A DNA stretch of 64,000 nt from a virus (IMGVR_UViG_3300031555_007106); one strand, 5' to 3'. Counted from the first letter of the stretch, positions 14,381 to 64,000 are shown. The notes: generated by a model not told the origin, from the sequence alone. A program made the numbers and translations.

Positions 14381-14776
14381 TTATTGCTGGGTTTCCGCAG
14401 ATAAAATCTCATAAGCTTTTCTCAGCATATCCATATCAAAAAAACCGAAATGACAATCTTCGACGGAGATGCCGAGCTGCTTAGCAAGCTTTTTATATGC
14501 TTTGTTTCTTTTCTTTCTTCTCTCCCGAGGCTCTGAATCCTTCCATTTTAAATCGAATAAATCGTGGCACTTCTTCTTGAGTGTTCTCATTTCTTCATTG
14601 GAAAGAATTCCGTAAGCTTCATCAGGACGAGGTTCGTGTGTACCAACACGGGCACCGCAATTCGTACATAAGTACATTTTCCCACTTCCATAAGGTCTAC
14701 CGTATATTCTAGCATTGTCGGTGAATATAACTTCACCACCGCAAATGTTACATACAGTTGGTCTTAATTCAATCAC
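14381..14776 (-). CDS. zinc-ribbon protein (131 aa; GTG start); CxxCGG...C..CGA pattern, DUF3268-like
   Basis: ORF track. Motif CNICGGEV...YLCTNCGARVGTHEP. First gene of array after terminator at ~14340-14378. Confidence 0.6.
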   Translation of the reverse strand: MIELRPTVCNICGGEVIFTDNARIYGRPYGSGKMYLCTNCGARVGTHEPRPDEAYGILSNEEMRTLKKKCHDLFDLKWKDSEPRERRKKRNKAYKKLAKQLGISVEDCHFGFFDMDMLRKAYEILSAETQQ

Positions 14777-14796
14777 AGTAAATCTCCTTTCTCAAA

Positions 14797-15063
14797 TTAA
14801 CCTTCTTCAGCAGTCGTAAGTTCCAATTTTTCAGAATTTGTCTTTGGATTCTTGAGGTCTGCAAGAAGTCTTTCGATAGCGTCAACGATATTTTCATTCT
14901 GAGCTAAAGTTGCCTCTACTGTGATATCGCGAGTTAAAAACGAACTGCAGAAAGGACATAATTCCATCCCTGCACTGTTCACTTCGAGATTTTCGTCATC
15001 CCATACAGTCTTACAACCGATACAATAAAGCTTTCTTATTCCTTCTCTTCTAAATGTATTCAT
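14797..15063 (-). CDS. small Zn-ribbon protein (88 aa; CIGC...CPFC)
   Basis: ORF track. 4-nt overlap with upstream gene. Confidence 0.6.
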   Translation of the reverse strand: MNTFRREGIRKLYCIGCKTVWDDENLEVNSAGMELCPFCSSFLTRDITVEATLAQNENIVDAIERLLADLKNPKTNSEKLELTTAEEG

Positions 15064-15695
15064 GCCTTTTTCCTTTCTTTTTTACCGTGGAACACCTTAT
15101 TAAAGCTATCGATTGCTGAAATGATAGAGTCCAGTTTTTCGATATACCCTTCATTTATCGTGCATTCAAGATATTTTGTCACTTCATCTGAATCAAGAGG
15201 TCGATTATCCGGTAGTTCCTTTTGAACTTTTTTCACATCATTTGTAACCTTGTAACGCAAATGAGTGAGGTAATTGTAAATATCAACAGTATTTTTGTTA
15301 TTTTCACGAAATGCGTTCGAAATAAAGTCAACAGCAGCACAAGCTCCGTTCTCTTTTGCAAACTGTAAAAAAGCAGGAGATTCTTCATTAACAGAAGATT
15401 TGCCTTTATTGTACACCAATTCAACATCCAACACATCTCCAATAGCTTCAGCTATTCGCGTAGAACAAATAACCTGTTCAATATTTTCATCACCACTGTC
15501 TTTTTCGATAACTGCTTCTGCCCCGCAAATCTTACAGGTCCAGATATTATCAGCGTCCGGGCCGTGAGTTACCTCAACACAGCTATTCTCCTCTTCGAGA
15601 AAATCGCCGTTTTCATCAACAACCCAATCCTGACATACATGAGCAGTTGTAACAAACTGCTTATGCTCAATATTGTTCGGACATATTGCTTTCAT
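15060..15695 (-). CDS. hypothetical Cys-rich protein (211 aa); C-terminal half shares a domain with the N-terminal part of 19740..20576
   Basis: ORF track. SPAFLQFAKENGACAAVDFISNA...DIYNYL vs SPKFLQVAKNEGDKAVIEFITNS...EIYHYL. Confidence 0.65.
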   Translation of the reverse strand: MKAICPNNIEHKQFVTTAHVCQDWVVDENGDFLEEENSCVEVTHGPDADNIWTCKICGAEAVIEKDSGDENIEQVICSTRIAEAIGDVLDVELVYNKGKSSVNEESPAFLQFAKENGACAAVDFISNAFRENNKNTVDIYNYLTHLRYKVTNDVKKVQKELPDNRPLDSDEVTKYLECTINEGYIEKLDSIISAIDSFNKVFHGKKERKKA

Positions 15696-15776
15696 TTTTC
15701 TTTCTCCTTTTCTTAACGCAAATAGTCTATAGATTTTCTTTTTGTACCATTTTCATTGCTGTACACAAATGTGATT

Positions 15777-16956: not shown

Positions 16957-17096
16957 AATTAATTTTCCTTTCATAATAAAATAATAGCAATTCTTTAAAA
17001 CTCCAGTCGTCATAAAATAATTGCTATTTATAGTATGGTAAAAAAGCTGTAAAACAAAAAAGCCCGCCGTAGCGAGCCTTTTTCTTTGTTTTGCTA
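16957..17096 (-). repeat. terminator-promoter-RBS cassette copy 1
   Basis: Matches ~130-bp consensus (minus orientation): TAATAGCAATAAC-AAAGAAAAAGGCTCGC-TACG-GCGGGCTTTTTTG-TTTTAC-GCAAACTTTATCATACTAT-TAGTAGCAATTATTTT-ATGACGACTGGAGTTTTAAAG-AATTGCTATTATTTT-ATTATGAAAGGAAA-N-ATG. Confidence 0.85.
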
Positions 17097-20911: not shown

Positions 20912-21148
20912 TTAATCCTCCTCTGTCAACTTTCTGAACTCATCTACTTCAGGACACATTCCAAGAAAGCGCCCATTGTCAAATTCGACGTGAATAGTTC
21001 CAATATCGTCAACAAACTTAACAGTTCCTTTTGTGTTAGGTGGCACAGGATTAACATCATCTCCCATGGAAACGAGAATTACTCTCGTTCCGGGTGGGTA
21101 AGTATCCTTGTAATACTGTGCCTTTTCTCTACTCATAAACTGGCTCAT
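20912..21148 (-). CDS. DUF4314-like small protein (78 aa)
   Basis: Pattern YPPGTRVILVSMGDD..PVPPNTKGTV.FVDDIGTIHVEFDNG matches my memory of the DUF4314 signature (GTRV.L..M.D...P.GT.GTV..VDDIG...V.WDNG). Confidence 0.6.
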   Translation of the reverse strand: MSQFMSREKAQYYKDTYPPGTRVILVSMGDDVNPVPPNTKGTVKFVDDIGTIHVEFDNGRFLGMCPEVDEFRKLTEED

Positions 21149-22522: not shown

Positions 22523-22768
22523 TTAATGTAAATATTTTCTGTAATAGTCCATAGCGTCCTCGACTGTTTCAAACAGGTCATCTACATCGTCAGGTTCATC
22601 AGGTATGAACCCCGTTCTGCGGTCAATGATGCAATAGCCGAAGAAATATGTGCTATTAGGTTTTTCTTTCTTAAACTCTTCGAAATTATCGTAAATGTCG
22701 CCGTAGTTACCATTTTCTAATTCTTCTGCAACAACTACAGTAATTTCATACTTGTCATTAATCTTCAT
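22523..22768 (-). CDS. hypothetical protein (81 aa); tandem paralog of the N-terminal half of 22800..23300
   Basis: MKINDKYEITVVVAEELENGNYGDIYDNFEEFKKEKPNSTYFFGYCIID vs MKVDERYEITPVVVECLPDGNAGSIYVDFHKFKLDKPNSEYFFAFCVVD. Confidence 0.6.
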   Translation of the reverse strand: MKINDKYEITVVVAEELENGNYGDIYDNFEEFKKEKPNSTYFFGYCIIDRRTGFIPDEPDDVDDLFETVEDAMDYYRKYLH

Positions 22769-22799
22769 AGTTTTAATTCCCTTTCTTAAATAATTTCAA

Positions 22800-23300
22800 T
22801 TAACCCATTGGTCCATAACTTTGATTTTCAATTCTTGCCAACTTTAAACGCATCTCATACGCTTCTTGGTCTCTTTCGTTCATCCTTTTCCGAAGACTAT
22901 CTCTATCTTCTATCAAAGCATAGATATGCTGAACAGCTCTTCTTAAACCATCAACATTAGCAGGTAAAAGACCTATCGGAGACTGAACGTATTTTAAAGA
23001 TTCATCATTTTTCGCCGTCGATGAAAAAGGAAATTCATCGTTCACCTCAATATCGCTGAAACCCATCAATACGTGAAGACGATAATCATTCATAGCATCG
23101 TCAAGCGTTTCATTCCATTTGTTACAGTTGTCAGGGATATATCCTGTTTCTGTATCGACAACGCAAAAAGCGAAGAAATATTCACTATTTGGCTTATCAA
23201 GCTTGAATTTATGAAAATCCACATAAATACTCCCCGCATTTCCATCGGGAAGACATTCGACAACAACAGGTGTAATTTCATATCTTTCATCAACTTTCAT
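22800..23300 (-). CDS. hypothetical protein (166 aa); first gene after cassette 2
   Basis: ORF track. AAAGGAAA RBS from cassette. Confidence 0.65.
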   Translation of the reverse strand: MKVDERYEITPVVVECLPDGNAGSIYVDFHKFKLDKPNSEYFFAFCVVDTETGYIPDNCNKWNETLDDAMNDYRLHVLMGFSDIEVNDEFPFSSTAKNDESLKYVQSPIGLLPANVDGLRRAVQHIYALIEDRDSLRKRMNERDQEAYEMRLKLARIENQSYGPMG

Positions 23301-23441
23301 AATATTTTCCTTTCATTAATAAAAATAATAGCAATCTATAACTCCAGTCGTCATAAAATAATTGCTACTAATAGTATGATAAAGTTTGCGTAAAACAAAA
23401 AAGCCCGCCGAAGCGAGCCTTTTTTTCTTTGTTATTGCTTA
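23301..23441 (-). repeat. terminator-promoter-RBS cassette copy 2 (UUCG-loop terminator variant; 3-nt shorter spacer)
   Basis: aaaaataatagcaatctataactccagtcgtcataaaataattgctactaatagtatgataaagtttgcgtaaaacaaaaaagcccgccgaagcgagcc... Confidence 0.85.
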
Positions 23442-23918
23442 TTAACCAAACGATTCAACCCGAACATAATTAGGGACGACATCAACATCTAACTCTGCAA
23501 AGTATTTTTTGAAAATTTCGCAAAGTTTTTCTTCAGTTAAGTTCTTTTCAGTTTCGTTCATATACCATGGATGTGTTTCAGGATGCATAATAGCCCAATC
23601 ATATTCCGAACGAACTTCATCAATAAAGACTCCTGTTTCTTTTCTCATGATGTAAGCAATTACGGAATAAAACGAACCGCAACCTGATATATCATATTCA
23701 TCTTCAGCTTCAACATATCCGTCTAACCAATCAGAAAATTCTTCGTTTTCTTCATTCAGATTTTCGATATCAAATCCTTCAGATTCGGCCTTTTCCAGCA
23801 TTTTCTTATAATCTTCCGGTAAATGTTTTTCATAGAAACGTAAAAAAGCCTTAAGTTCTACGCATATTACGTTTATATCAACGCCGTATCCATAGGTAAT
23901 ACTTGTCTGCATACTCAT
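23442..23918 (-). CDS. acidic hypothetical protein (158 aa)
   Basis: ORF track. Stop codon inside cassette-2 TAATAA motif. Confidence 0.65.
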   Translation of the reverse strand: MSMQTSITYGYGVDINVICVELKAFLRFYEKHLPEDYKKMLEKAESEGFDIENLNEENEEFSDWLDGYVEAEDEYDISGCGSFYSVIAYIMRKETGVFIDEVRSEYDWAIMHPETHPWYMNETEKNLTEEKLCEIFKKYFAELDVDVVPNYVRVESFG

Positions 23919-24678: not shown

Positions 24679-25170
24679 TTATTCCTGTTCAAAGGAATAA
24701 AAATCTTCGTCACAAGTAAAGCACTGATATTTGTAATCGGTTATGTCTGATTCAAACAATGTAGAGCCACAACGCTCGCAAGTGCCACAGCCCTCAACTA
24801 CTTCATAGCCTGAATCAATCAAATTGGTTCTCTTTAGCCAGTCGTATGCTGTAGCTCTGTCTCTAAATACGACAACATTGCTATCCTCTGCTATGAAACA
24901 AGAAGGAATAATGCCGTATTCCTTGCAAAGCTTCTCAAACTCATCTTCTTCAAGGTAATCAGTTGCATTTCTTATAACACAACCTATCTTTCCTCGTTTT
25001 AATGCTCTGTCGCTCATTGCAGGGACCAAAGAAGTTGTGATAAATTCACCACATTTGTCTGCATCACAAACATCCTTAAAATCAGCATCAAATGCCTTTA
25101 TGTGTTCTGCAACACCGGAAAGAGTATTGATAACTCTTTCTAATTCATTTAAAATCTCAATCTTTTCCAT
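24679..25170 (-). CDS. hypothetical Cys-rich protein (163 aa; C-terminus CGTCERCG...CFTC)
   Basis: ORF 24679..25224. Start moved to MEKIEILNEL (Met19) with AGAAAGGAAAAAAAT RBS, which removes the overlap with the upstream gene. Confidence 0.6.
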   Translation of the reverse strand: MEKIEILNELERVINTLSGVAEHIKAFDADFKDVCDADKCGEFITTSLVPAMSDRALKRGKIGCVIRNATDYLEEDEFEKLCKEYGIIPSCFIAEDSNVVVFRDRATAYDWLKRTNLIDSGYEVVEGCGTCERCGSTLFESDITDYKYQCFTCDEDFYSFEQE

Positions 25171-27420: not shown

Positions 27421-27553
27421 ATTTATCCTTTCCTTTCATAAAAATAAGCAATAATTTTTAAACTCCGTTCATCATAAAAATATTGCTATACATAGTATGG
27501 TAAAAAAGCCATAAAACAAAAAAAGCCCACCGAAGTGAGCTTCTTTATTGCTA
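27421..27553 (-). repeat. terminator-promoter-RBS cassette copy 3 (divergent; terminator stem carries compensatory GCUCAC/GUGGGC change)
   Basis: ...aaactccgttcatcataaaaatattgctatacatagtatggtaaaaaagccataaaacaaaaaaagcccaccgaagtgagc... Confidence 0.8.
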
Positions 27554-29932: not shown

Positions 29933-30195
29933 ATATTTTCCTTTCTGTATACATTTTCTTTTTTCAGTTTATTTATTATTAACTGCACAATTTTATTGAA
30001 GAATATTATGAACATTATCCATACTCCAAAATCCATATCTCCAACAAAATTTATTTTGTATCCTGATATAAAATAAATCAAAATAACAGTAACACATGCA
30101 GCTAATATTATCAATTGCTTAAATCCTCTGTTAAGTAAAGTAAAACTTTCAAATATTAAAGCAAAAACAAGTGCCATCAAAATATCTATAAGCAT
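29929..30195 (-). CDS. small membrane protein (88 aa, 2-3 TM)
   Basis: ORF track. Hydrophobic. Confidence 0.5.
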   Translation of the reverse strand: MLIDILMALVFALIFESFTLLNRGFKQLIILAACVTVILIYFISGYKINFVGDMDFGVWIMFIIFFNKIVQLIINKLKKENVYRKENI

Positions 30196-30851
30196 ATTTT
30201 TCCCTTTCGTTTTATCTGATTTATGTTTTCGGATATTTCAGCATAAATATCTTCAATTGTTCTCGGCTTTCCATTTTCAGCACACTTGATAACAATCCAG
30301 CTTTCGCGTTTCGCTACATAATAAGCAGCTCGATGACACTCGTTCAGAAAACCAATATTAGATTCGTGAATATCTTTCTTTGTTTCATCTCCGTCATAAC
30401 GATTGGAAAGCATCTTTTGTGACACTTCAATAGGCATATCAAGAAAAATAGTCGCATCAGGTTTTGGTAATCCAAGCTTAACATATTCAAAATCATAAAG
30501 CCAATCAAGATATTCGTCCCATTTGTCTTTAGGTAATTTTGTCATCTGATATATAGCATTCGAAGATACATAACGAGCGGACACCAGAAGTTCATTTTTA
30601 TCATAAAGCTCTTTCCAATGAACCCTAAAACTTGTGTAACGGTCAATTGCATACATTGCACTTGCCGAATAAGCACTAACTGTTTCAGAGGTTTCATCGA
30701 ATTTGCCATCAAGATAATCTCTTATTATTTTTCCGCTATTCGTATCATAATACGGAAATGTTATAAAATCGGCATTTTTGTAATTTTGTTTAAGCAATTC
30801 GAGCTGTGTTGACTTTCCGCATCCGTCAAGCCCTTCGATTACGATAAACAT
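30186..30851 (-). CDS. tmk: thymidylate kinase-like P-loop (d)NMP kinase (221 aa)
   Basis: N-terminal MFIVIEGLDGCGKSTQ P-loop and AIDRYTSF (DRY/DRH-type) motif typical of dTMP kinase family. Confidence 0.65.
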   Translation of the reverse strand: MFIVIEGLDGCGKSTQLELLKQNYKNADFITFPYYDTNSGKIIRDYLDGKFDETSETVSAYSASAMYAIDRYTSFRVHWKELYDKNELLVSARYVSSNAIYQMTKLPKDKWDEYLDWLYDFEYVKLGLPKPDATIFLDMPIEVSQKMLSNRYDGDETKKDIHESNIGFLNECHRAAYYVAKRESWIVIKCAENGKPRTIEDIYAEISENINQIKRKGKICL

Positions 30852-31487: not shown

Positions 31488-32477
31488 TTATTCTGTAATA
31501 TCAACAATGGGTGTAGCGTCACTCTGGACCTGAGGAAGCTTACCATCCCACTTCTCAACGTATGTTTCAATCTTACGGAGTTCGACAAGCGAAGGCGTAA
31601 GCGATTCGGCAATCTTCTTATTAGCTTCTGCTTCTGCTTCAGCGGCAATTCTTACTACTTCTGCATCTGCCTGAGCCTTAATCTTTGCTGCATCAGCTTC
31701 AGCCTGTGCTTTTGCAATCTCAACTTCGTTAAGATTCTGCTGTGTGGTAAGAAGCTGTTCAGAGCTGAACTTTTCGTCAATAGCTGCCTGAATAGCTGCG
31801 TTTTCGTAAGATATACCTTCCTTCATACCAAGAACTGTAATTGTTACGCCGTATTCGCTGAAATGAGTCTTTACGTTTGTAACAACTTCATTCATTATAT
31901 TGGTCTTATTAGCCTGTAAATCTGCGATATTGTACTTTCCTACAGCCTTATTGAATTCATCCTCAACCATAGCACGAATATCATTGTCGATTACTGTTTC
32001 GAGAGGCGTGTTATTGTAACGGTATAAGAACTTAGTTGCATTAGCTTCGTCAATCTGAGCAGAGCAGTTCATACCTACATAAACGCCGATACCATCAAGA
32101 GATTCGCCAAAGATAGCACTGTTCTGTGAAGTCTCAGCGTCAACTCCTGATACCCACTCTCTTGTAACAGGCTTACGCTCTACAATTATAAGCTTTGCGG
32201 ACGCGCGATATTCGCCCTGATTATCCATCATACCTGTCTGAACCCAACGATGCGGAATCTGAATTTCCTTTGTGGCAACCTTTGCCTGTTCGAGTAATTC
32301 TTCAGACTCAAAAGATGCCTGTTCACTTGTATCTCCGGTTAAAGGGATAAGGAACGCCGTCTGGCTTGCTTCAATTGTTACAAATTCAGGGGTATCGTAA
32401 GGTCTGCAACCTGCAAGGCTTATTGTGCAGACAAGAAGTCCGATTACTGCGATGATTTTTTTAATTGTTTTTCTCAT
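31488..32477 (-). CDS. SPFH/band-7 (prohibitin/flotillin-like) domain lipoprotein (329 aa)
   Basis: Lipobox MRKTIKKIIAVIGLLVCTISLAGC. C-terminal AQAEADAAKIKAQADAEVVRIAAEAEAEANKKIAE coiled-coil typical of SPFH proteins. Hairpin at ~31448-31472 follows. Confidence 0.65.
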   Translation of the reverse strand: MRKTIKKIIAVIGLLVCTISLAGCRPYDTPEFVTIEASQTAFLIPLTGDTSEQASFESEELLEQAKVATKEIQIPHRWVQTGMMDNQGEYRASAKLIIVERKPVTREWVSGVDAETSQNSAIFGESLDGIGVYVGMNCSAQIDEANATKFLYRYNNTPLETVIDNDIRAMVEDEFNKAVGKYNIADLQANKTNIMNEVVTNVKTHFSEYGVTITVLGMKEGISYENAAIQAAIDEKFSSEQLLTTQQNLNEVEIAKAQAEADAAKIKAQADAEVVRIAAEAEAEANKKIAESLTPSLVELRKIETYVEKWDGKLPQVQSDATPIVDITE

Positions 32478-33187: not shown

Positions 33188-33322
33188 TTTCTTCTTTCCT
33201 TTCATTAAAATAATAGCAATTCTTTAAAACTCCAAACGTCATAAAACAATCGCTACTAATAGTATGATAAAAAAGCCGTAAAACAAAAAAGCCCGCCAAA
33301 GCGGACTTTTTCGCAATATTGC
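33188..33322 (-). repeat. terminator-promoter-RBS cassette copy 4 (terminator stem GUCCGC-UUUG-GCGGGC, compensatory)
   Basis: aaaataatagcaattctttaaaactccaaacgtcataaaacaatcgctactaatagtatgataaaaaagccgtaaaacaaaaaagcccgccaaagcggac... Confidence 0.8.
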
Positions 33323-36142: not shown

Positions 36143-36282
36143 TTTAATTCTCCTTTTAAAATAATTTAAGCAATTTTTAGAACTCCATAACGTCATAAAA
36201 TACTGCTATATATAGTATGAAAGTTTTCTTATAAAATAAAAAGCCCGCCGTAGCGAGCTTTTCTTTGCTATTATCTATTATT
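36143..36282 (-). repeat. terminator-promoter-RBS cassette copy 5 (most divergent)
   Basis: ...aagcaatttttagaactccataacgtcataaaatactgctatatatagtatgaaagttttcttataaaataaaaagcccgccgtagcgagc... Confidence 0.7.
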
Positions 36283-37369: not shown

Positions 37370-37566
37370 AATTTTATTCCTTTCTCTTTTAAAACTTTTT
37401 CTATCTCTTCTCTATTTGTGCAGAAGAGATTTTTGCTGTCAATCCAATACGCTTTAGGAGTTTTCTTCAGGAACTCTATCATTCTTTCACTTAGATATTC
37501 CTCCTCAAAGAATATTATTCGATAACCATGAAAATAGCGTTTATCCTGCACTCTTACAATAGTCAT
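37366..37566 (-). CDS. hypothetical protein (66 aa)
   Basis: ORF in array. 4-nt overlap. Confidence 0.5.
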   Translation of the reverse strand: MTIVRVQDKRYFHGYRIIFFEEEYLSERMIEFLKKTPKAYWIDSKNLFCTNREEIEKVLKEKGIKL

Positions 37567-38058: not shown

Positions 38059-38202
38059 TATTACGCTTCCTTTCATTAATAAAATAATAGCAATCTTTAA
38101 GACTCCAGTCGTCAATAAATAATTGCTACTAATAGTATGATGAAAAAGGTATAAAACAAAAAAAAGCCCGCCGTAGCGAGCTTTTCTGTTATTGCTATTA
38201 CA
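38059..38202 (-). repeat. terminator-promoter-RBS cassette copy 6
   Basis: taaaataatagcaatctttaagactccagtcgtcaataaataattgctactaatagtatgatgaaaaaggtataaaacaaaaaaaagcccgccgtagcgagc... Confidence 0.85.
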
Positions 38203-43953: not shown

Positions 43954-44092
43954 AATTTAATTCCTTTCATAATAAAAATAATAGCAATTCTTTAAAAACT
44001 CCAATCGTCATAAAATAATTGCTACTAATAGTATGATAAAGTTTGCGTAAAACAAAAAAGCCCGCCGTAGCGAGCCTTTTTTGTTATTGCTA
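43954..44092 (-). repeat. terminator-promoter-RBS cassette copy 7 (near-identical to copy 2)
   Basis: ...ataatagcaattctttaaaaactccaatcgtcataaaataattgctactaatagtatgataaagtttgcgtaaaacaaaaaagcccgccgtagcgagcc... Confidence 0.85.
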
Positions 44093-46039: not shown

Positions 46040-46666
46040 TCACCAACTATAAGTCGAAAGACTTTCAACTTCGCAACCATCGCAGTCGAGACAAAGCCAA
46101 TCACAGTTATTTTCCTTAGCCAGCTTAATGCAAGCTCTTAAATCTTCGGGAAGACGTGCAATAGTCTCGGTGTCAATATCACACCATATCCAATAGCCGT
46201 AGTCTTCTTTGTCGTACACAGACAAACCCATGACGCCACACCAGTTTGGTTCGCATAACTTCTCGTTTGTTTCTTCTGTAATATGTGATGTCGCAATTGT
46301 TAAGCATCTGGTGATGTCAAGATTACATTTCTTACCTGCTTCCTGCGTTTCCTTATTTCTTGAACCCTTGCTATATGTAAAGGTTTCAAGCTTTTTCATT
46401 AAGGAAATACTCAAATTTGCCGGACTCCATACATTTACGAATTCGCCATTTATAAGCTTAGCACGAATGAAAGTTAGACCGATTTCAAGACTCTCAATTG
46501 AAGGCACTAAAGCAAGTAAATTGTTTGCTTTAGCCTTTTCTTCATCATCCAGCCCACTATTGTTCACAACATAGAACAATGCGTCGGTTACTTCCTGTAC
46601 ATCACGTTCAACTGCGTATTTTTTTATCATATTAGGATTTGAACTAAAATCTTCGTAAATAATCAT
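46040..46666 (-). CDS. hypothetical protein (208 aa); N-terminal domain paralogous to adjacent 46670..46963
   Basis: MIIYEDFSSNP...EVTDAL...LALVPSIESLEIGLTFIRAKLINGEFVNV vs MIIYDVYGSFP...EVYTAL...IAWLPNIACINAEKEDVEVIFTNGESVEV. Confidence 0.6.
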   Translation of the reverse strand: MIIYEDFSSNPNMIKKYAVERDVQEVTDALFYVVNNSGLDDEEKAKANNLLALVPSIESLEIGLTFIRAKLINGEFVNVWSPANLSISLMKKLETFTYSKGSRNKETQEAGKKCNLDITRCLTIATSHITEETNEKLCEPNWCGVMGLSVYDKEDYGYWIWCDIDTETIARLPEDLRACIKLAKENNCDWLCLDCDGCEVESLSTYSW

Positions 46667-49310: not shown

Positions 49311-49490
49311 AACTAATTTTCCTTTCGCAATAAAATAATAGCAATTCTTTAAAACTCCAGTCGTCATAAAATAATTGCTATTTATAGTATGGTAAAAAAG
49401 CCGTAAAACAAAAAAGCCCGCACACGGCGAGCTTTTCTTTTTGTTGCTACTATTTTTACAGTGTTTTCAAATTATCCACAGAGGCGTAAC
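49311..49490 (-). repeat. terminator-promoter-RBS cassette copy 8 (near-identical to copy 1; hairpin variant gcccgcacacggcgagc; ~45-nt extra spacer before upstream stop)
   Basis: aataaaataatagcaattctttaaaactccagtcgtcataaaataattgctatttatagtatggtaaaaaagccgtaaaacaaaaaagcccgcacacggcgagc... Confidence 0.8.
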
Positions 49491-50412: not shown

Positions 50413-51372
50413 TTATGCTGTATTTTTCGCCACCTTCACAGGAGCATGAATAAGCTTAACCTTGCCATTTTCCCATATAGAAGAATTTGTTCCATATACA
50501 CTCTTAACGGAGTAGTCTTCACAACCATCGGGATAAGCAGATGCTATAAATCTGATAGGAAGCTTTACATCCTTTTCGAGTTCAATTTCAAGGAGACTTC
50601 CAGCTCCAGACCAAGAATCGAATAATCCTGTTGTGGTATTCTTATCAATTACGATATACCCACAATAAGGTCTTTCCGTCGCATCGTACTTTCGCCCATT
50701 TACATCCTGAAGATTTATAAGCTCATTAAGCTTTAAAAGTTCTTCAAGTGTCATTTCAACGAGAAAAGTAAGAATATTCATATGTGAGGATGCATTTGCG
50801 ACTTCTGCTCGAACACTCTTCAGAAAAGTTGATAAATCTTCTTTATTTGCAGATGTAAGTGCTTTTTTAAGTTCGCTTTTCTTAACTCCCTGATTTTTCG
50901 CAAGCCATACAACACTCGCTTTATCAGAAAAGCTTCCGTCATAATAACTATAATAACAAGGAGGAAGACAATTAAGCGTATAGTCGTAATTTCCATCTCC
51001 TGTATCAACAAAGATGTCCACACACACCTTCTGCTTAAGAAAATGGTTATATGGATATTTAGCAAAAATCATATCCTGAATATAACTTTCAACCTGTGCT
51101 TTATCAAAATCAAAGCCGTCATATTCGATATGACAGATGATTCTTCCGATAATATCATCAATACTCTCCATAAAACGAATCTCATAAGCGTCGATGATTT
51201 TTTCGTAAAATGCGTCCATAGGATTTTTCTCTTCAAGAAGCTCTCTTATCTGCTTATCGGTAAGATAATCCCGATAATCGGCATATATCTCATATTCGAA
51301 ATAACCATCGGGAGCCTTATCACAGAACTTTTCAATTTGAGAATTTACATATTTCTTAAAACTTTCTGTCAT
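50413..51372 (-). CDS. hypothetical protein (319 aa)
   Basis: ORF track. Confidence 0.65.
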   Translation of the reverse strand: MTESFKKYVNSQIEKFCDKAPDGYFEYEIYADYRDYLTDKQIRELLEEKNPMDAFYEKIIDAYEIRFMESIDDIIGRIICHIEYDGFDFDKAQVESYIQDMIFAKYPYNHFLKQKVCVDIFVDTGDGNYDYTLNCLPPCYYSYYDGSFSDKASVVWLAKNQGVKKSELKKALTSANKEDLSTFLKSVRAEVANASSHMNILTFLVEMTLEELLKLNELINLQDVNGRKYDATERPYCGYIVIDKNTTTGLFDSWSGAGSLLEIELEKDVKLPIRFIASAYPDGCEDYSVKSVYGTNSSIWENGKVKLIHAPVKVAKNTA

Positions 51373-51994: not shown

Positions 51995-52154
51995 AAAATT
52001 TATCCTTTCATAATAAAAATAATAGCAATTCTTTAAAAACTCCAGTCGTCATAAAATAATTGCTATTAATAGTATGATAAAGTTTGCATAAAACAAAAAA
52101 GCCCGCCGAAGCGAGCCTTTTTCTTTGTTATTGCTATTATTAAAATATTAGTTA
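51995..52154 (-). repeat. terminator-promoter-RBS cassette copy 9
   Basis: aaaaataatagcaattctttaaaaactccagtcgtcataaaataattgctattaatagtatgataaagtttgcataaaacaaaaaagcccgccgaagcgagcc... Confidence 0.85.
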
Positions 52155-55919: not shown

Positions 55920-57020
55920 TTAAGACGTAAAAGATAAACAAGTTCCAACCTCTCGGAAATCGACCCCGTTTTCTAAGAAAAAACGAACTCTCTCTTTGAT
56001 TTTAGATATGTACGAGCCGTCAATTTCAATGGTTGTACATTTTCTGTTTTCGCACATAGCGGCAATCAATGAGGAACCTGAACCTGCGAATGGGTCAAGT
56101 ATCATATCCCCTTCCTTTGTTGAGTTGCGTATATACATACGAAGCAAATCAACAGGCTTTTCGGTCTCATGAATCTTATTTCCGATAATGTTATTGAACT
56201 CGTGAACAGTTTTACAACCCTTATCGGCAATTGATTTTGCCTTGCCTTTACGGCAGAAGAGCACATATTCGGCGTTCTTCATATACCAACGATTCGGAGT
56301 AGCGTTGTTTTTCTTCCACACAAGTAAATTGTGTATCTGAAACCCTGCTTTCTGCACTTCAGCCATTAATTCCTGAAGATTTAACAGGTTTATGAAAAAA
56401 TAGGCATGACATTCATTTTTAAGGACACGAAACAGTTCTCCCATATATTCGGAAAAACTGATATTATTGTGTTCAAATATCTTGCCGTTGTTTTTTGTCA
56501 GCATACCTGATGGGTCTCCTTCACCGCAAGCACCACCACTTATAGTGCGATATGGGACATCAGTAAGTATCATATCAAAGCTTTCTGTCTTCAAACGTTT
56601 CAGAATTTCTCTGGCGTCATCCTGTATAAGCATAGCAGAAAGGCTTTCATAATGATTTTCCATGTCTTCAAAAGATGAAAAATTATCCATTCTCTGATAC
56701 ACACCTGTTTTTACATCTTCTTTTGTTACATAATCTCTGTGTATGAAAGAAATTTCCTTGTTGCCATTATAGTAAGTAGCCACGTAATTTACAGACTTAT
56801 CTTCATCAGACAATTCAGTAACCTTTACCACTTCAACAACACTGTATACGCCTTTATCTATACGAGAAAAAGCCGCATTTTCTTCTGTGTTAATAAGATA
56901 GCGGTTAATATTACCACGAATAGAAGATTTCTTATACTCCGGCAATGAATCGTAAATTTCACTCAAACTCATAGTTTTATTAACCTGTAATAGGCTAATA
57001 ACCTTTTCCACAATCGTCAT
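55920..57020 (-). CDS. DNA methyltransferase, beta-class N6-adenine/N4-cytosine family (366 aa) with ~130-aa N-terminal extra domain; no adjacent nuclease (orphan)
   Basis: Motif IV-like ILTDVPY, then HETEKPVDLL, then motif I LDPFAGSGSS. The order IV->I is typical of beta-class amino-MTases. Confidence 0.85.
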   Translation of the reverse strand: MTIVEKVISLLQVNKTMSLSEIYDSLPEYKKSSIRGNINRYLINTEENAAFSRIDKGVYSVVEVVKVTELSDEDKSVNYVATYYNGNKEISFIHRDYVTKEDVKTGVYQRMDNFSSFEDMENHYESLSAMLIQDDAREILKRLKTESFDMILTDVPYRTISGGACGEGDPSGMLTKNNGKIFEHNNISFSEYMGELFRVLKNECHAYFFINLLNLQELMAEVQKAGFQIHNLLVWKKNNATPNRWYMKNAEYVLFCRKGKAKSIADKGCKTVHEFNNIIGNKIHETEKPVDLLRMYIRNSTKEGDMILDPFAGSGSSLIAAMCENRKCTTIEIDGSYISKIKERVRFFLENGVDFREVGTCLSFTS

Positions 57021-57988: not shown

Positions 57989-58125
57989 AGTTTATTTTCC
58001 TTTCATAATAAAATAATAGCAATTCTTAAAACTCCTATCGTCAATAAAATATTGCTATTAATAGTATGATAAAGTTTGCATAAAACAAAAAAGCCCGCCG
58101 AAGCGAGCTTTTTCTATTATTGCTA
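57989..58125 (-). repeat. terminator-promoter-RBS cassette copy 10 (near-identical to copy 9)
   Basis: aataaaataatagcaattcttaaaactcctatcgtcaataaaatattgctattaatagtatgataaagtttgcataaaacaaaaaagcccgccgaagcgagc... Confidence 0.85.
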
Positions 58126-61149: not shown

Positions 61150-62820
61150 TCATTTTAACATTAATATTTCGGAACCACCCTGAGCTATTCTTGTAGCTAT
61201 AGGATTCGCAAGTTCGTTTTCATACGCCTTTTCACCCTGAAAACTATCAACAACAGATTTTTCTTCGTTGTCCATTTCGTTGTAGTGTTTCTTGCCGTAA
61301 GAACGAGGAAGCCAACCCTTTTTCATTGAACCGTAGATATTTAAAGCATTTAAAGCCTCTTCGCAGGTAAACTTGATATGAACTGTTCCCTTTTTATAGA
61401 GAGTAATGTCAAAATATCGAAGTTCAATGTTTTTAGTACGTCCACAAAGAGATGCCGCGTCAAGCTGCTTATTCATATCAAGATAATCCTTTCCGGGAAT
61501 ACAAAAATAAGCACAGGCTTTTTCGATATCAACAAGTAAATTGTATACTTCGTAAGTGGAAAAGGCCTCGCGACACCAATTGTCTTTGAATACATTGCCA
61601 TATGTAGGAAGGATAACCTTATTGTTAATCTTATGCGCTATATTAGTTCTCCATCCATTGTAATAATGAATATTCTTTTCGCATTCAGGGAACCAAGAGT
61701 GCTGTTCAGTCATCTTATCGAAAGCTGCTATAATTGAATCTTCAACACCCTTTTCGAGCATAGCCATCATCTGACACTTAATCTCATTGATATTATGCTC
61801 GTTATAGTCGTATTCACTAAGCATACTAATCTGTGAATAGAAATCATCAATCATTTTAGCAGTAAAACGACTGGTAAGCTCTTTGTTCTTAAAGAAACGC
61901 CTCCAGTATTTACTTCTAAGCATACGAATATACTCATTTATCATTGCTTTACACGAGGTTTTATTACTCTTAACTTCCATATCTCCTATTTTTAGAGAAA
62001 TTAAAGGAGCAAGAGCACTTTCTCGTTCCCAGCTTTGCATTGTATCTTCCACGAAATCTGTAGGCAAATGCTTTGCAATTCTGAAATATTCGGCAATAAA
62101 AGCTTTTCCGGCTTCAAGCTCCACCTGATACGACACAATATCAGCACGCAGTTCTCCGCTACCCAATATTAGTTCATACTTTTCGGTATCTGCTTTTATA
62201 TCTTCGATAACAGTTTTTTTCATATTTTCATAGAAAAAACTTGCTTTCTCCTTTTCAGGAATAGTTAACGTGATAAGAGCGACTTCAACATCAGTTGTAC
62301 GTTCCGCATCTGCAAACGCTCCTGTTATATACTCGACTTCAGCTTCACGTTTAAGAATTTCAACAAGTTCTTTCCTTTTGTTATCATACGGATTTTTAAT
62401 AGTTTCTGCATTGAGCAAGCATACTATTGTACCGCCATCTTTCATCATATTGATTGCTTTAAGTAAATGTTGAGCTCCTTCGGAAAAAGGAGGATTCATA
62501 AGAATGTGTGTATAGACCTTCCCCGTATTGAATTTAAGAAAATCGTCATACACAACATTAACCTTAGGATTATTACCATACTTTCCTTTAAGCTCATTCC
62601 TTAAATTATGGTCGATTTCAATACAATCGATTTTACAGTAATAACCACTTTTCTTCTTATCAAAATAACTGATAAGGGAATCTGTGATGTTACCACGACC
62701 AGTAGAAGGTTCAAGGATGTAACAATCTTTTAAGTTATCCTGAGAACCAAAAGCCTTTTCTATCATCTTCTCGACCAATTCATCCGGTGTAGGATAAAAT
62801 TCTTTCGGAATTCCTGTCAT
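61150..62820 (-). CDS. N6-adenine DNA methyltransferase, gamma-class (556 aa; FYPTP...ILEPSTGRGN...NPPF) with ~350-aa C-terminal region (possible target-recognition domain); no nuclease partner seen
   Basis: Motif X-like EFYPTPDELVEKM, motif I YILEPSTGRGNI, motif IV ILMNPPFSEG in X->I->IV order. Confidence 0.85.
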   Translation of the reverse strand: MTGIPKEFYPTPDELVEKMIEKAFGSQDNLKDCYILEPSTGRGNITDSLISYFDKKKSGYYCKIDCIEIDHNLRNELKGKYGNNPKVNVVYDDFLKFNTGKVYTHILMNPPFSEGAQHLLKAINMMKDGGTIVCLLNAETIKNPYDNKRKELVEILKREAEVEYITGAFADAERTTDVEVALITLTIPEKEKASFFYENMKKTVIEDIKADTEKYELILGSGELRADIVSYQVELEAGKAFIAEYFRIAKHLPTDFVEDTMQSWERESALAPLISLKIGDMEVKSNKTSCKAMINEYIRMLRSKYWRRFFKNKELTSRFTAKMIDDFYSQISMLSEYDYNEHNINEIKCQMMAMLEKGVEDSIIAAFDKMTEQHSWFPECEKNIHYYNGWRTNIAHKINNKVILPTYGNVFKDNWCREAFSTYEVYNLLVDIEKACAYFCIPGKDYLDMNKQLDAASLCGRTKNIELRYFDITLYKKGTVHIKFTCEEALNALNIYGSMKKGWLPRSYGKKHYNEMDNEEKSVVDSFQGEKAYENELANPIATRIAQGGSEILMLK

Positions 62821-62845
62821 AATTTATTTTCCTTTCCTTTTTTTC

Positions 62846-63892
62846 TTACGCTATGTATTTGTTCTGTGCTATGAGTTTTGAAACTCGCTCAGCAACTTCA
62901 TTCCATTTCATCGTAACTTCTGCATCGGGATTTGAGAGGTCGCCTTTTTGGAGTGTTAAACCTTCTGAATTGTACATAGTGTTATATCCACTACAACCGC
63001 TACCACCGATACCATATTCGTTTTTAAGAAAATCAGCCTTTTCTTTTGCTGTATGCGATTCTTTAAAGAATTTTGCAATTCTACTCTTGCCACCTACAAT
63101 GTTACTGCCCGAAGCTACAAGCTTATCCTTTTCATCTTCGGTTATAAAGTATCTATGCTTAACCGAAAAGGACGGTTCAGCAGTAAACTTCACTCGGTCA
63201 AGCTGTCTATCTTCGAGTTTTTCAAGAATTTCGGGGAGGTTGTGAAAATGAAAACGGAGAACCTCACGGTCAGCTTCATACTGTTTCATAAGGTTTTTCA
63301 TTCCATCAATCATTTCCTGCACAGACTTTTCGCACTGTAATGTTTCGGCAATTTTATCTGTACTTTCACTAAAACCTCCGACAAAAAAGAAATCAGGGAT
63401 AAAATACTCTGTTCTCACATCCTGATGAAGATACCACAATTTATCTGCGAGCTGTTTACATTCGTAATTCTCTGCGGTTTTTAGGATATCTTGTGTGACA
63501 AATCTGCCTTCATTTAAAAGCTCTCTGATACGATTGGAAACCTGCTCCCAAGTCATAGATGCACTTGCATCGTGATTGAAAGCTGTTTGTCCCATACCAA
63601 GAGTGATACCATCTTTGTCGTACCAAACTGAAAAACTCGTTTTTCCTGAACAGCTGGGACTTTCATATAGAAAGCCCCTACCGTCCACACCAAATTCCTT
63701 GCGGAGGAACTCAGTGTTACTTTTCATACTCTTATTTTTCTCAAACTGAGCAACAATACGTTCCAAACTGTGTGGTTCGTTACTACCTGCACGAAGCATA
63801 TAGTCAATCATATCCTGTGCAAAAGCATTTGAAGATGAATAGTCGATATCGAAATCATCAAACGATAATTGCACAAATCCATCCATTTTCAT
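62846..63892 (-). CDS. hypothetical protein (~349 aa) with internal duplication of a ~70-aa module
   Basis: ORF 62846..63901. EFLRKEFGVDGRGFLYESPSCSGKTSFSVWYDKDGITLGMGQ...MTWEQVSNRIRELL vs DFLKNEYGIGGSGCSGYNTMYNSEGLTLQKGD...MKWNEVAERVSKLI. Start choice among three clustered ATGs uncertain. Confidence 0.6.
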   Translation of the reverse strand: MKMDGFVQLSFDDFDIDYSSSNAFAQDMIDYMLRAGSNEPHSLERIVAQFEKNKSMKSNTEFLRKEFGVDGRGFLYESPSCSGKTSFSVWYDKDGITLGMGQTAFNHDASASMTWEQVSNRIRELLNEGRFVTQDILKTAENYECKQLADKLWYLHQDVRTEYFIPDFFFVGGFSESTDKIAETLQCEKSVQEMIDGMKNLMKQYEADREVLRFHFHNLPEILEKLEDRQLDRVKFTAEPSFSVKHRYFITEDEKDKLVASGSNIVGGKSRIAKFFKESHTAKEKADFLKNEYGIGGSGCSGYNTMYNSEGLTLQKGDLSNPDAEVTMKWNEVAERVSKLIAQNKYIA

Positions 63893-63924
63893 GTTATGCA
63901 TCTCCTTTTAACTTTCCTTTCTTT

Positions 63925-64000
63925 TTCAGATTGTGGTTAATTCAGCAAGATATCTCTCGACATCATTATCGTAGTTCGTAATCATATTTTCGTTTTTGAG
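63925..64000 (-). CDS. hypothetical protein, C-terminal fragment (...LKNENMITNYDNDVERYLAELTTI*); N-terminus beyond window end
   Basis: Hand translation open to window edge. Stop at 63925-63927. Confidence 0.4.

What the first reader, a model, noticed from the sequence alone, without database searches (positions are those of the whole stretch)
14381..64000. 50-kb strictly co-directional array of ~100 small ORFan genes: phage early/host-takeover-like or anti-defence island
From 14.4 kb to the window edge every credible gene is on the minus strand. Spacers are 4-25 nt or genes overlap by 4-8 nt. Median protein size is about 100 aa, and almost none has a recognisable fold. Many are Zn-ribbon-like or extremely acidic. 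The few assignable genes (two orphan DNA MTases, a dTMP-kinase-like kinase, an SPFH lipoprotein, DUF4314) are those typically carried by phages and conjugative elements to modify DNA or tamper with the host. No capsid, tail, terminase, integrase, relaxase or T4SS gene is in the window. The element type (large phage early region, ICE/plasmid leading or accessory region, or chromosomal island) is therefore open. A gene set this large, dense and one-directional with its own regulatory cassettes is a prime place for undescribed anti-defence or host-takeover functions.
Basis: partly seen in the sequence, partly recalled or inferred. Interest (0 to 1): 0.8.

Follow-up and report, generated by a model that had tools for sequence, protein, structure and literature searches.

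The report
Huge one-way ORFan gene array
About a third of a roughly 195-kb mobile element from a Gram-positive rumen bacterium is one unbroken, one-directional run of more than 120 small, mostly acidic genes of unknown function, cut into about 13 expression units by a repeated terminator-promoter cassette; this looks like the 'early/host-interference' gene store of a large phage or plasmid, but the element type could not be settled.

Summary
I genes (plus about 4 tiny ones) at 14381-63892, all on the minus strand: median 115 aa, 72 of 103 junctions at most 30 nt or overlapping, 63 with pI below 5. The run continues at least 10 kb past 64000. Only 10 of 104 genes hit any Pfam, PHROG, NCBIfam or PADLOC family.

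New findings:
- A 135-150 nt cassette (terminator, CATACTAT promoter-like box, 5' hairpin, RBS) recurs 10 times in the window and 3 times upstream.
- The box also precedes the neighbouring sortase-anchored giant adhesin genes and appears element-specific.
- Window proteins occur on contigs of 193,036 and 196,607 bp, at 99.5% identity or more across at least seven samples.

Element type is unresolved. One gene (50413-51372) belongs to a family found in co-directional small-ORF arrays of Herelleviridae phages and in 32 IMG/VR contigs, two with a portal gene nearby. Other genes point to plasmids or conjugative elements (MTase-DUF4942, a polyvalent-protein domain, DUF4314, NPETG adhesins).

Best reading: the host-interaction ORFanage of a large phage or phage-plasmid (about 0.45), against a megaplasmid or conjugative accessory arm (about 0.35). 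Anti-defence function is inferred, not shown. This is a new member of a known kind.

The parts
14381..64000 (-). Co-directional array of 104 called genes (plus about 4 tiny ORFs). It runs off the window and continues at least 10 kb upstream (L001 1-10000).
57989..58125 (-). Regulatory cassette copy: terminator hairpin with T-run, CATACTAT box, 5'-UTR hairpin, RBS, abutting the next start codon.
51995..52154 (-). Regulatory cassette copy.
49311..49490 (-). Regulatory cassette copy.
43954..44092 (-). Regulatory cassette copy.
38059..38202 (-). Regulatory cassette copy.
36143..36282 (-). Regulatory cassette copy, the most diverged one, with an indel in the 5' UTR.
33188..33322 (-). Regulatory cassette copy.
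27421..27553 (-). Regulatory cassette copy. It carries the one compensatory G-C to A-U change in the terminator stem.
23301..23441 (-). Regulatory cassette copy.
16957..17096 (-). Regulatory cassette copy.
14336..14380 (-). Terminator-like hairpin (GAGGTCTTTGAAGGGCCTC followed by a T-run) just after the last array gene.
   Evidence: read directly from the sequence
11205..11299 (-). Two stand-alone copies of the TCTATCATACTAT promoter-like box, upstream of the 2050-aa adhesin gene.
12430..12437 (-). Stand-alone CATACTAT box upstream of the secreted 310-aa protein gene (11452-12384).
13893..13900 (-). Stand-alone CATACTAT box in the 672-nt gap below the array. Downstream of it lie a TTGACA-N17-TATAAC site and a terminator at 13718-13749.
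61150..62820 (-). Orphan N6-adenine DNA methyltransferase fused to DUF4942.
55920..57020 (-). Orphan N6/N4 DNA methyltransferase, 53% identical to one on R. albus 7 pRUMAL01.
62846..63892 (-). Stand-alone copy of a domain that elsewhere sits inside large polyvalent proteins (ArdC-N/LPD16/MTase; SNF2).
50413..51372 (-). 319-aa 'anchor' protein (phrog_23767). Its family occurs in Herelleviridae early arrays, in 32 IMG/VR contigs and in other 100-240 kb ORFan-array contigs.
46040..46666 (-). Protein with a DUF5983 C-terminal domain.
31488..32477 (-). SPFH/Band-7 lipoprotein (phrog_200).
30186..30851 (-). dTMP (thymidylate) kinase.
23442..23918 (-). Member of an unnamed family of about 150 aa. Confident alpha/beta model with no match to any solved structure.
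20912..21148 (-). DUF4314 protein.
14381..14776 (-). DUF3268 zinc-finger protein (phrog_1934), the last gene of the array.
22523..23300 (-). Tandem paralogues sharing a ~75-aa N-terminal domain (49% identity). Other paralogue pairs: 28920-29588 with 38907-39794, 37541-37840 with 37864-38058, 15060-15695 with 19740-20576.
5009..11161 (-). 2050-aa surface adhesin: signal peptide, weak thioester-domain match (Pfam TED, below its curated cutoff), 8 SpaA repeats, and an NPETG sortase signal followed by a TM segment and a charged tail.
1..4742 (-). N-terminal 1580 aa of a 1797-aa secreted giant protein. A 2691-aa secreted protein follows it outside the window.
11452..12384 (-). 310-aa secreted protein with a Cys/His/Asp motif that I read by eye as transglutaminase-like (not tested with any tool).

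Best explanation
The window holds most of an 'ORFanage' of at least 60 kb and at least 126 genes. I read it as the accessory, host-interaction arm of a roughly 193-197 kb extrachromosomal mobile element in a Gram-positive rumen Clostridium, probably Oscillospirales/Ruminococcaceae. The element is most likely a large phage or a plasmid-like prophage (phage-plasmid).

How it would work. The arm is transcribed in one direction only. It is divided into at least 13 units of about 2-6.6 kb by a repeated cassette of 135-150 nt. Each cassette stops the upstream transcript with an intrinsic terminator. It then restarts transcription from a conserved, element-specific promoter-like box (T-rich, then TAyCATACTAT). 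It gives every new mRNA the same 5'-terminal stem-loop and an unpaired AAAGGA ribosome-binding site placed right before the first start codon. Within a unit, genes are translationally packed, with gaps of 15-30 nt or overlaps.

The products are mostly small acidic cytoplasmic proteins. I infer that they bind and neutralise host proteins (takeover, anti-defence, establishment). Two orphan MTases would protect the element's DNA from restriction, and a dTMP kinase would feed DNA synthesis. The repeated cassettes are also the likely substrate for the duplication and shuffling that built the array, which contains several paralogue pairs.

Shown here: the gene array, the cassette anatomy and its conservation, the terminator, the lack of known families, the relatives and their contexts.

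Inferred: promoter activity, the mRNA-stabilising role of the hairpin, host-interference or anti-defence function, the element type, and cassette-mediated shuffling.
For: Architecture:
- 104 minus-strand genes with tight junctions and RBS motifs.
- The array continues upstream for at least 10 kb.

Cassette:
- Ten full copies match a 38-nt degenerate pattern or its indel variant, against 0 expected. Three more lie upstream.
- The terminator folds at -18.4 kcal/mol (z = -5) and has one compensatory change.
- The 5' hairpin folds at -9 to -11.6 kcal/mol and leaves the RBS free.
- The extended CATACTAT box is absent from the more than 40 other loci I fetched, including about 100 kb of rumen Clostridia plasmids.

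ORFan status:
- 10 of 104 genes hit any library.
- There were 0 PDB sequence hits for 29 genes.

Discrete element of about 195 kb:
- Contigs of 193,036 and 196,607 bp carry the window's proteins.
- Identity is at least 99.5% across samples.

Phage affinity:
- The family of 50413-51372 is in Herelleviridae phages. In phage Grass it sits inside a co-directional array of about 50 small ORFs ending at the terminal repeat.
- The family is also in 32 IMG/VR contigs, two with a portal protein within 8 kb. It gave no match among the 40 best of 151 plasmid records.
- At least seven further array families co-occur with it in other ORFan-array loci.
- The closest match to the DUF4942 MTase includes C. 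botulinum pNPD1_1. This is a 196,981-bp circular replicon with Rha, ParB, RepA, RtcB and DnaB, which looks like a phage-plasmid.

Published analogues:
- Terminator/promoter cassettes flanking small variable genes are the PeSL motif of T4-like phages (PMC2839356, PMC4122927).
- Small, highly expressed early genes with their own promoters form the SPO1 host-takeover module (PMC6873191).

Host:
- The adhesin carries an NPETG sortase signal.
- The best plasmid homologues are in Ruminococcus albus 7.
- A sister element is binned as Ruminococcaceae.
Against: - No phage hallmark gene (terminase, portal, capsid, tail, DNA polymerase) occurs anywhere in the 79 kb of the source contig that I could read.
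- Four giant secreted proteins lie in or just beyond the window, at least one anchored by sortase, and two of these genes are preceded by the same promoter-like box. This is unusual cargo for a phage and ordinary for a Gram-positive plasmid.
- Several assignable genes have their best or most numerous relatives on plasmids and conjugative elements.
- The cassette pattern was not found in IMG/VR. This is weak evidence, because the source contig and its near-identical copies also seem to be absent from the searchable metagenome collection.
- The promoter box matches sigma-70 poorly, about 7 of 12 positions, and a generic scanner does not pick it up. Promoter function therefore rests only on position and conservation.
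- No gene has a demonstrated anti-defence or takeover homologue.
Confidence: 0.45

Rival explanations
1. The region is the accessory or leading ('establishment and anti-defence') arm of a large megaplasmid, possibly conjugative, in a rumen Clostridium. Strict co-orientation would reflect replication direction and/or entry polarity. The small proteins and orphan MTases would help the plasmid establish in new hosts, and the giant sortase-anchored adhesins would serve cell contact.
For:
- The domain at 62846-63892 lies inside polyvalent proteins. One is next to TraG and topoisomerase III (L009). Others are on plasmids of R. albus 7, Subdoligranulum and Monoglobus.
- DUF4314 and the second MTase have their best matches on R. 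albus 7 pRUMAL01. There they sit in a similar 49-kb run of small hypothetical genes on one strand.
- A relative of the Zn-ribbon gene lies upstream of a T4SS pilin hit, flagged 'faint' (L017).
- Butyrivibrio pCY186 (186 kb) is likewise co-directional and mostly hypothetical (PMC2914790).
- Orphan MTases and uniform gene orientation are published hallmarks of leading regions (PMC11541004).
- The adhesin has a signal peptide and an NPETG signal, and its gene carries the same promoter box.
Against: - No rep, par, relaxase, coupling protein or T4SS gene occurs in the readable 79 kb.
- No ArdA, SSB, PsiB or Acr was found.
- The cassettes are ordinary double-strand-type terminator/promoter units, not long Frpo/ssi hairpins.
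- At 60 kb or more, the array is far longer than the leading regions analysed in PMC11541004.
- The 50413-51372 family is found in phages and in none of the plasmid rows I could see.
- No repeated cassette was found in the two rumen megaplasmid stretches I examined.
Confidence: 0.35
2. The region is an integrated element (prophage, ICE or genomic island) inside a bacterial chromosome. The contig would be a chromosome fragment, and the adhesin genes at 1-12.4 kb would be host flank rather than element.
For: - Composition and gene style change at 12-14 kb: GC falls to 0.31, the skew weakens, there are two long gaps and the only two plus-strand genes.
- Relatives of the anchor gene lie next to large serine recombinases (L043, L044).
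- A sister contig has been binned into a MAG.
Against: - There is not one housekeeping gene in 79 kb.
- The element-specific CATACTAT box also precedes the adhesin and secreted-protein genes, which ties them to the array.
- Two independent assemblies end at nearly the same length, 193.0 and 196.6 kb.
- There is no integrase, tRNA or att-like repeat at the boundary.
Confidence: 0.12
3. Most of the small ORFs are not real genes. The array would be decayed or non-coding DNA that happens to contain open frames.
For: About 90% of the ORFs lack any family hit.
Against: - 103 of 104 ORFs have an RBS at the right distance and 102 start with ATG.
- All have positive codon-usage scores, and they tile 91% of one strand without overlaps.
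- About 5 of 9 tested ORFs have metagenomic homologue families or domain relatives at 30-56% identity.
- One family folds with pLDDT 92.
- Sequences are conserved at 99.5% or more across samples.
Confidence: 0.01

Closest known systems
PeSL (promoter-early stem-loop) cassettes in the hyperplastic regions of T4-like phages (PMC2839356, PMC4122927)
   Same: A short composite terminator-plus-promoter motif is repeated many times, always in the same orientation. It lies between small, poorly conserved genes that are grouped in long variable regions. Paralogues within the array are consistent with recombination at the repeats.
   Different: - There is no sequence relationship, and the host is Gram-positive.
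- The unit here is longer (135-150 nt). It also carries a conserved 5'-UTR stem-loop and the RBS of the next gene.
- The promoter box is not a clear sigma-70 early promoter.
- Gene swaps at the cassettes could not be demonstrated.
- No T4-like core genes were seen.
SPO1 host-takeover module and the early small-ORF arrays of Herelleviridae (PMC6873191; Bacillus phage Grass NC_022771)
   Same: Both are dense co-directional arrays of small genes, each block with its own promoters, terminators and strong RBS, in a large element of a Firmicute. One window gene (50413-51372) is a true homologue, at 34-36% identity over about 290 aa, of a gene embedded in such an array in Grass, SBSphiJ and the BSP phages.
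   Different: - SPO1's module is 26 genes in 12.4 kb, within the terminal redundancy. This array is at least 126 genes in at least 60 kb and is not at a contig end.
- No other gene is shared.
- No Herelleviridae structural or replication gene is in reach.
Leading-region 'establishment and anti-defence' islands of conjugative plasmids (PMC11541004)
   Same: Gene orientation is uniform, orphan DNA methyltransferases are present (the DUF4942-fused type is very common on conjugative plasmids), and there are many small uncharacterised genes.
   Different: - No oriT or relaxase is nearby.
- There is no ArdA, SSB, PsiB, Acr or toxin-antitoxin hit.
- There are no Frpo/ssi-type single-strand promoters.
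- The region is several-fold longer.
Rumen Clostridia megaplasmids (R. albus 7 pRUMAL01/02; B. proteoclasticus pCY186/pCY360; PMC2914790) and C. botulinum pNPD1_1 (196,981 bp)
   Same: The size class is the same (186-420 kb). Genes are mostly hypothetical and run tens of kb on one strand. Single genes are shared at 40-60% identity: MTases, DUF4314 and the polyvalent domain.
   Different: - Their genes are larger on average and more often assignable.
- No repeated cassette was found in the stretches examined.
- Only one to three genes are shared.

Membership tests
PeSL-type mobile regulatory cassette (T4-like hyperplastic regions) | Composite motif: stem-loop terminator immediately followed by an early promoter | tested here: inconclusive
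   The terminator is clear: -18.4 kcal/mol, z = -5, T-run, one compensatory change. The promoter is inferred only from a conserved box at the right place. It matches sigma-70 at about 7 of 12 positions and the generic scan does not call it.
PeSL-type mobile regulatory cassette (T4-like hyperplastic regions) | Many copies, same orientation, between small variable ORFs | tested here: met
   There are 10 copies in the window and 3 upstream. All are intergenic and on the coding strand, spaced 1.9-6.6 kb apart.
PeSL-type mobile regulatory cassette (T4-like hyperplastic regions) | Cassettes are break-points of insertions, deletions or replacements between related genomes | tested here: inconclusive
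   All other copies of the element that I could read are at least 99.5% identical, with only a ~20-nt indel beside one cassette. No diverged sister genome was available. Paralogue pairs exist inside the array.
PeSL-type mobile regulatory cassette (T4-like hyperplastic regions) | Resides in a T4-like myovirus genome | tested here: not met
   No T4-like core gene occurs in 79 kb, and the host is Gram-positive. I therefore treat this as an analogue, not a member.
Tailed phage genome (Caudoviricetes) | Terminase, portal, major capsid and tail genes | tested here: not met
   None is present in the window or in the 10-14 kb on either side. About 114 kb of the source contig could not be read.
Tailed phage genome (Caudoviricetes) | Genes shared with recognised phages | tested here: met
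   The 50413-51372 family is in Herelleviridae and in IMG/VR contigs with portal genes. Nine further genes hit PHROGs.
Conjugative plasmid leading region / anti-defence island | Lies next to oriT, on the side that enters the recipient first | not testable with these tools
   No relaxase or oriT is in the readable 79 kb, and the rest of the contig is out of reach.
Conjugative plasmid leading region / anti-defence island | Known anti-defence, SOS-inhibitor or SSB genes | tested here: not met
   Pfam, NCBIfam, PADLOC and PHROGs gave no ArdA, ArdB, KlcA, Ocr, Acr, PsiB or SSB hit. Only the orphan MTases are present.
Conjugative plasmid leading region / anti-defence island | Orphan DNA methyltransferases, all genes in one orientation | tested here: met
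   There are two MTases without nuclease partners and 104 of 104 genes on one strand. Which strand would be transferred is unknown.
Conjugative plasmid leading region / anti-defence island | Frpo/ssi single-strand promoters (long imperfect hairpins) | tested here: not met
   The cassettes hold two short separate hairpins with the conserved box unpaired between them. Rfam gave no match.
SPO1-type host-takeover module | Cluster of small early genes with their own strong promoters and RBS in a Herelleviridae terminal region | tested here: inconclusive
   The style matches and one gene is homologous to a gene in such an array. No homologue of SPO1 gp37-60 was detected by PHROGs, and the position relative to genome ends is unknown.

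The most novel reading that the evidence does not exclude
The window may belong to an undescribed lineage of 100-240 kb extrachromosomal elements of gut and rumen Clostridia that fits neither textbook phages nor textbook plasmids. These elements would devote a third or more of their genome to a cassette-organised 'library' of more than 120 small host-interference or anti-defence proteins. That library would be driven by an element-specific promoter read by an element-encoded sigma factor or RNA polymerase, and the same promoter would also drive giant sortase-anchored adhesins. Sister elements with the same architecture are L020 (182 kb), L022 (230 kb), L024 (104 kb) and L061 (240 kb). The recurring gene set is a homologue of the 50413-51372 protein, a PemK-like toxin (in the sister elements, not in the window) and DNA methyltransferases.
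Probability: 0.2. Interest if true: 0.75.

Novelty: new member of a known kind. Interest (0 to 1): 0.55.

Why it matters
Long one-directional arrays of small unknown genes in phages and plasmids are where most anti-restriction, anti-CRISPR and host-shutoff proteins have been found. This array is unusually large, with at least 126 genes, about 90% of which have no family.

Three things make it attractive for screening. It comes from an anaerobic rumen Firmicute, for which almost no such biology is known. It circulates nearly unchanged in several samples. And its expression units are clearly delimited, which makes cloning and screening straightforward.

At least one of its families has a confidently predicted fold with no solved relative. 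The repeated terminator-promoter-leader cassette is a ready-made candidate expression signal for rumen Clostridia, and it offers a test case for PeSL-like gene shuffling outside the T4-like phages.

Nothing here overturns current concepts, however. The finding is a rich new example rather than a new principle.

Tried and rejected
Searches that found nothing or too little:
- Megablast of 24.6 kb of the array against phages and plasmids gave no match.
- Scanning IMG/VR, GTDB genomes and JGI metagenomes for the cassette pattern gave 0 matches each. The source contig and its near-identical copies are evidently not in those copies, so this absence says little.
- A scan of GTDB genomes for the 23442-23918 family found no relative, so there is no direct host assignment.
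- Rfam at the gathering threshold found nothing, and there are no tRNAs.
- tblastn of about 45 ORFans against plasmids and about 27 against phages matched only DUF4314 or a few metagenomic 'Bacteriophage sp.' contigs.
- A PDB sequence search with 29 genes gave 0 hits.
- The generic sigma-70 scan was not enriched over shuffles and missed the cassette box.

Walking along the source contig failed:
- Proteins outside the window may not be looked up.
- Those proteins are not in the homologue database.
- Walking along an IMG/VR relative by exact DNA pattern would add only about 1 kb per scan, so I abandoned it.

Ideas tested and dropped:
- Gene swaps bounded by cassettes, tested by comparing six other contigs. 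All are at least 99.5% identical.
- The cassettes as Frpo-like single-strand promoters.
- The cassettes as a conserved upstream ORF. Indels between copies break the frame.
- Conserved intergenic repeats on the Butyrivibrio megaplasmids, which I half-remembered. None is present in the first 50 kb of pCY186.

Full report
1. THE OBSERVATION

The ORF table and my own codon-usage-based gene call show 104 genes between 14381 and 63892, every one on the minus strand. Of these, 102 start with ATG and 103 have an AGGA/GGAG-type RBS. The 103 junctions break down as 6 overlaps and 66 gaps of 0-30 nt, with a median of 21 nt. Coding density is 0.91, and three or four more tiny minus-strand ORFs fill gaps of 170-250 nt. 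Median length is 115 aa. Sixty-three proteins have pI below 5, eight have two or more CxxC motifs and six look membrane-bound. There are no tRNAs and no Rfam families.

The run is larger than reported. Genes at 1-12384 are also on the minus strand; the only plus-strand genes are 12827-13198 and 13208-13708. The source contig continues the array for at least 10 kb beyond 64000, with 22 more small genes that have no Pfam hit.

2. WHERE IT COMES FROM

Exact protein look-ups place the window on JGI metagenome contig 3300029305 Ga0307249_10001143 (193,036 bp). The window corresponds to contig positions 54,978-118,977 on the opposite strand. The same proteins occur on up to 13 contigs, the longest 196,607 bp. 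Six other contigs from JGI, ENA and Logan samples are at least 99.5% identical over 4-14 kb. Two independent assemblies of nearly the same length, with no housekeeping gene in the readable 79 kb, point to a discrete replicon of about 195 kb.

Downstream of the array lie giant secreted proteins:
- a 310-aa secreted protein with a Cys/His/Asp motif that I read by eye as transglutaminase-like (not tested with any tool);
- a 2050-aa adhesin with a signal peptide, a weak thioester-domain match (Pfam TED, below its curated cutoff), eight SpaA repeats and an NPETG sortase signal followed by a TM segment and a charged tail;
- a 1797-aa secreted protein and a 2691-aa secreted protein.

The host is therefore a Gram-positive bacterium. 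The best isolate homologues are on Ruminococcus albus 7 plasmids. A sister element from the same sample is deposited in a Ruminococcaceae MAG.

3. GENE CONTENT

Pfam, PHROGs, NCBIfam and PADLOC together assign only 10 of 104 genes:

| Window coordinates | Assignment |
|---|---|
| 14381-14776 | DUF3268 Zn-finger |
| 20912-21148 | DUF4314 |
| 30186-30851 | dTMP kinase |
| 31488-32477 | SPFH lipoprotein |
| 34502-34945 | weak PHROG hit only |
| 46040-46666 | DUF5983 |
| 50413-51372 | phrog_23767 |
| 55920-57020 | N6/N4 DNA MTase |
| 61150-62820 | MTase-DUF4942 |
| 62846-63892 | phrog_38613 |

Relaxed Pfam on the ten largest unknowns added nothing. A PDB sequence search with 29 genes found nothing. 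PADLOC hit little beyond methyltransferase models: the other two listed hits, PDC-M51B and mad2, were not mapped to a gene, and only 25 of the 72 matched families were shown. No Pfam, NCBIfam or PHROG nuclease family was hit, so the two MTases look like orphans.

The ORFs are real. Nine of them, searched by HMMER against 1.84 billion representatives, gave 453 hits. Well-populated but unnamed families exist for:
- the shared N-domain of 22523-23300;
- 23442-23918;
- the Zn-ribbon C-terminus of 24679-25170;
- 26358-26633.

4. THE REGULATORY CASSETTE

Ten gaps of 133-180 nt in the window, and three more upstream, hold the same unit of 135-150 nt at about 85-89% mutual identity. Every copy is on the coding strand. 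A 38-nt degenerate pattern finds 9 copies against 0 expected.

Read 5' to 3', each unit contains:
- the stop codon(s) of the preceding gene within ATAATAGCAA;
- an A-tract, the hairpin GCTCGC-TTCG-GCGGGC and a T-run, forming an intrinsic terminator. It folds at -18.4 kcal/mol (z = -5) and has one compensatory G-C to A-U change;
- 12 variable bases;
- the invariant box CATACTAT, preceded by T-rich sequence;
- TAGCAATT...AATTGCTA, a stem-loop of about 42 nt at -9 to -11.6 kcal/mol with a conserved loop (UAUGACGACUGGAGU);
- an unpaired AAAGGA RBS and the next start codon.

The box also occurs four times outside cassettes. All four are intergenic and on the coding strand: upstream of the adhesin gene (two copies), upstream of the 310-aa secreted protein gene, and in the gap below the array. 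That makes 14 copies on the coding strand against 1 on the other strand, where shuffles give about 4.6 for both strands together. The extended box is absent from the more than 40 other loci I fetched, including about 100 kb of rumen Clostridia megaplasmids. It matches sigma-70 only about 7 of 12 positions, and a generic scanner does not report it.

I infer a terminator-promoter-leader cassette that cuts the arm into at least 13 units of about 2-6.6 kb. The 5'-terminal hairpin resembles the 5' stabilisers known from Bacillus mRNAs (my own knowledge, not tested). Whether host sigma-A or an element-encoded factor reads the box is open.

5. WHAT KIND OF ELEMENT

Evidence pointing to a phage:
- The 50413-51372 family has more than 487 homologues.
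- It occurs in SPO1-like Bacillus phages at 34-36% identity. In phage Grass it sits within a co-directional array of about 50 small hypothetical genes that ends at the terminal repeat.
- It occurs in 32 IMG/VR contigs of up to 194 kb, two with a portal gene within 8 kb.
- It gave no match among the listed plasmid rows.
- Closer relatives (about 50% identity) lie in contigs of 104-240 kb with the same ORFan-array style, plus a PemK-like toxin and MTases.
- At least seven further window families recur in these and other ORFan-array loci.
- The DUF4942 MTase's best plasmid hits include C. botulinum pNPD1_1. This is 196,981 bp and circular, with Rha, ParB, RepA, RtcB and DnaB, which gives it a phage-plasmid look.

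Evidence pointing to a plasmid:
- The same MTase type is on at least 5000 plasmids, mostly conjugative.
- The 62846-63892 protein is a free-standing copy of a domain found in polyvalent proteins. One sits next to TraG and topoisomerase III, and others are on Oscillospiraceae plasmids.
- DUF4314 and the other MTase are closest to R. albus pRUMAL01. There they sit in a comparable one-strand array.
- Sortase-anchored adhesins are typical plasmid cargo.

No hallmark gene of either kind is in reach. Attempts to read the remaining ~114 kb of the contig were blocked. My estimates are about 0.45 for a phage or phage-plasmid, 0.35 for a megaplasmid or conjugative arm, and 0.12 for an integrated island.

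6. HOW IT MOST LIKELY WORKS

Shown here: the array, the cassettes and the orphan MTases.

Inferred: each cassette terminates the upstream transcript and launches a new stabilised mRNA, so that all units, and the adhesin operon, are expressed from one promoter class. The small acidic proteins would act by binding host factors, as the SPO1 host-takeover proteins do (PMC6873191), or as leading-region anti-defence proteins do (PMC11541004). The MTases would pre-empt restriction, and the dTMP kinase would support DNA synthesis. The repeats would provide homology for duplication and shuffling, as PeSLs do in T4-like phages (PMC2839356, PMC4122927).

7. COMPARISON AND NOVELTY

The array works like a phage hyperplastic or early region with PeSL-like cassettes. 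It is not a member of the T4-like PeSL family: there is no sequence relationship, the host is Gram-positive, the unit is longer and includes a leader, and swaps were not demonstrated. It also fails the tested defining features of a plasmid leading-region island, since it has no known anti-defence genes and no Frpo-type promoters.

I rate it a new member of a known kind. It is an exceptionally large ORFanage in an uncharacterised element of about 195 kb from rumen Clostridia, and a good hunting ground for new host-interference proteins.

Interest: 0.55.

Noticed in passing
window 13709-13900 (minus strand): Below the array's last gene there is a CATACTAT box, then a near-consensus TTGACA-N17-TATAAC site, about 150 nt without a convincing ORF, and a strong terminator at 13718-13749. 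This may be a small non-coding RNA, or a leader antisense to the 3' end of the plus-strand gene 13208-13708.
   Followed up: partly
window 14120-14333: A cluster of short direct and inverted repeats lies just downstream of the array. GACATCAATTTT occurs twice, TATTTTGAGATTTA twice, and TGACATCAA/TTGATGTCA forms a palindrome pair. These could be operators, iterons or a recombination site.
   Followed up: partly
window 12827-13708 (plus strand): These are the only two plus-strand genes in 64 kb: a 123-aa membrane protein and a 166-aa protein with no family. They are convergent with the array, in the AT-richest stretch (GC 0.31).
   Followed up: partly
L020 (JGI 3300029305 Ga0307249_10001326, 181,969 bp), 1-16704: A second large contig from the same sample, also deposited in a Ruminococcaceae MAG, carries an analogous array: 41 small genes on one strand in 16.7 kb, with a 50%-identical homologue of 50413-51372, a PemK toxin and a Dam MTase. 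Syntenic relatives lie on contigs of 104, 230 and 240 kb (L024, L022, L061).
   Followed up: partly
L009 (IMGVR_UViG_3300005461_000022): This contig is catalogued as viral, but the stretch I read encodes TraG, topoisomerase III, an ArdC-N/LPD16/MTase polyvalent protein and a group II intron reverse transcriptase. It looks like a conjugative element rather than a phage.
   Followed up: partly
L013 14528-14800 (R. albus 7 pRUMAL01, about 304.5 kb): Five copies of a ~25-nt repeat (GATGCAATCTGTACAGGCAGGTAAA) are spaced 65-69 nt apart in an unannotated gap, which looks like a CRISPR array.
   Followed up: no
window 4743-5008: The 266-nt gap between the two giant surface-protein genes holds a called 51-aa basic ORF and a terminator-like hairpin (CCCATCACTGTAAGGTGGTGGG). 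It has no CATACTAT box.
   Followed up: no
window 23442-23918 and alignment A3: An unnamed family of about 150 aa (N-terminal MSMQT.I.YGYG; later PW..NE.EK.LTEE...KY..ELG) gives a high-confidence alpha/beta model with no solved structural relative. In another contig (L015) it travels together with a homologue of 25187-25873.
   Followed up: yes
L060 (C. botulinum pNPD1_1, NZ_CP013295.1): This is annotated as a 196,981-bp circular plasmid, but it carries Rha, RtcB, a CCA-adding enzyme, DnaB and long one-strand runs of small hypothetical genes. It resembles a phage-plasmid and is almost exactly the size of the element studied here.
   Followed up: partly
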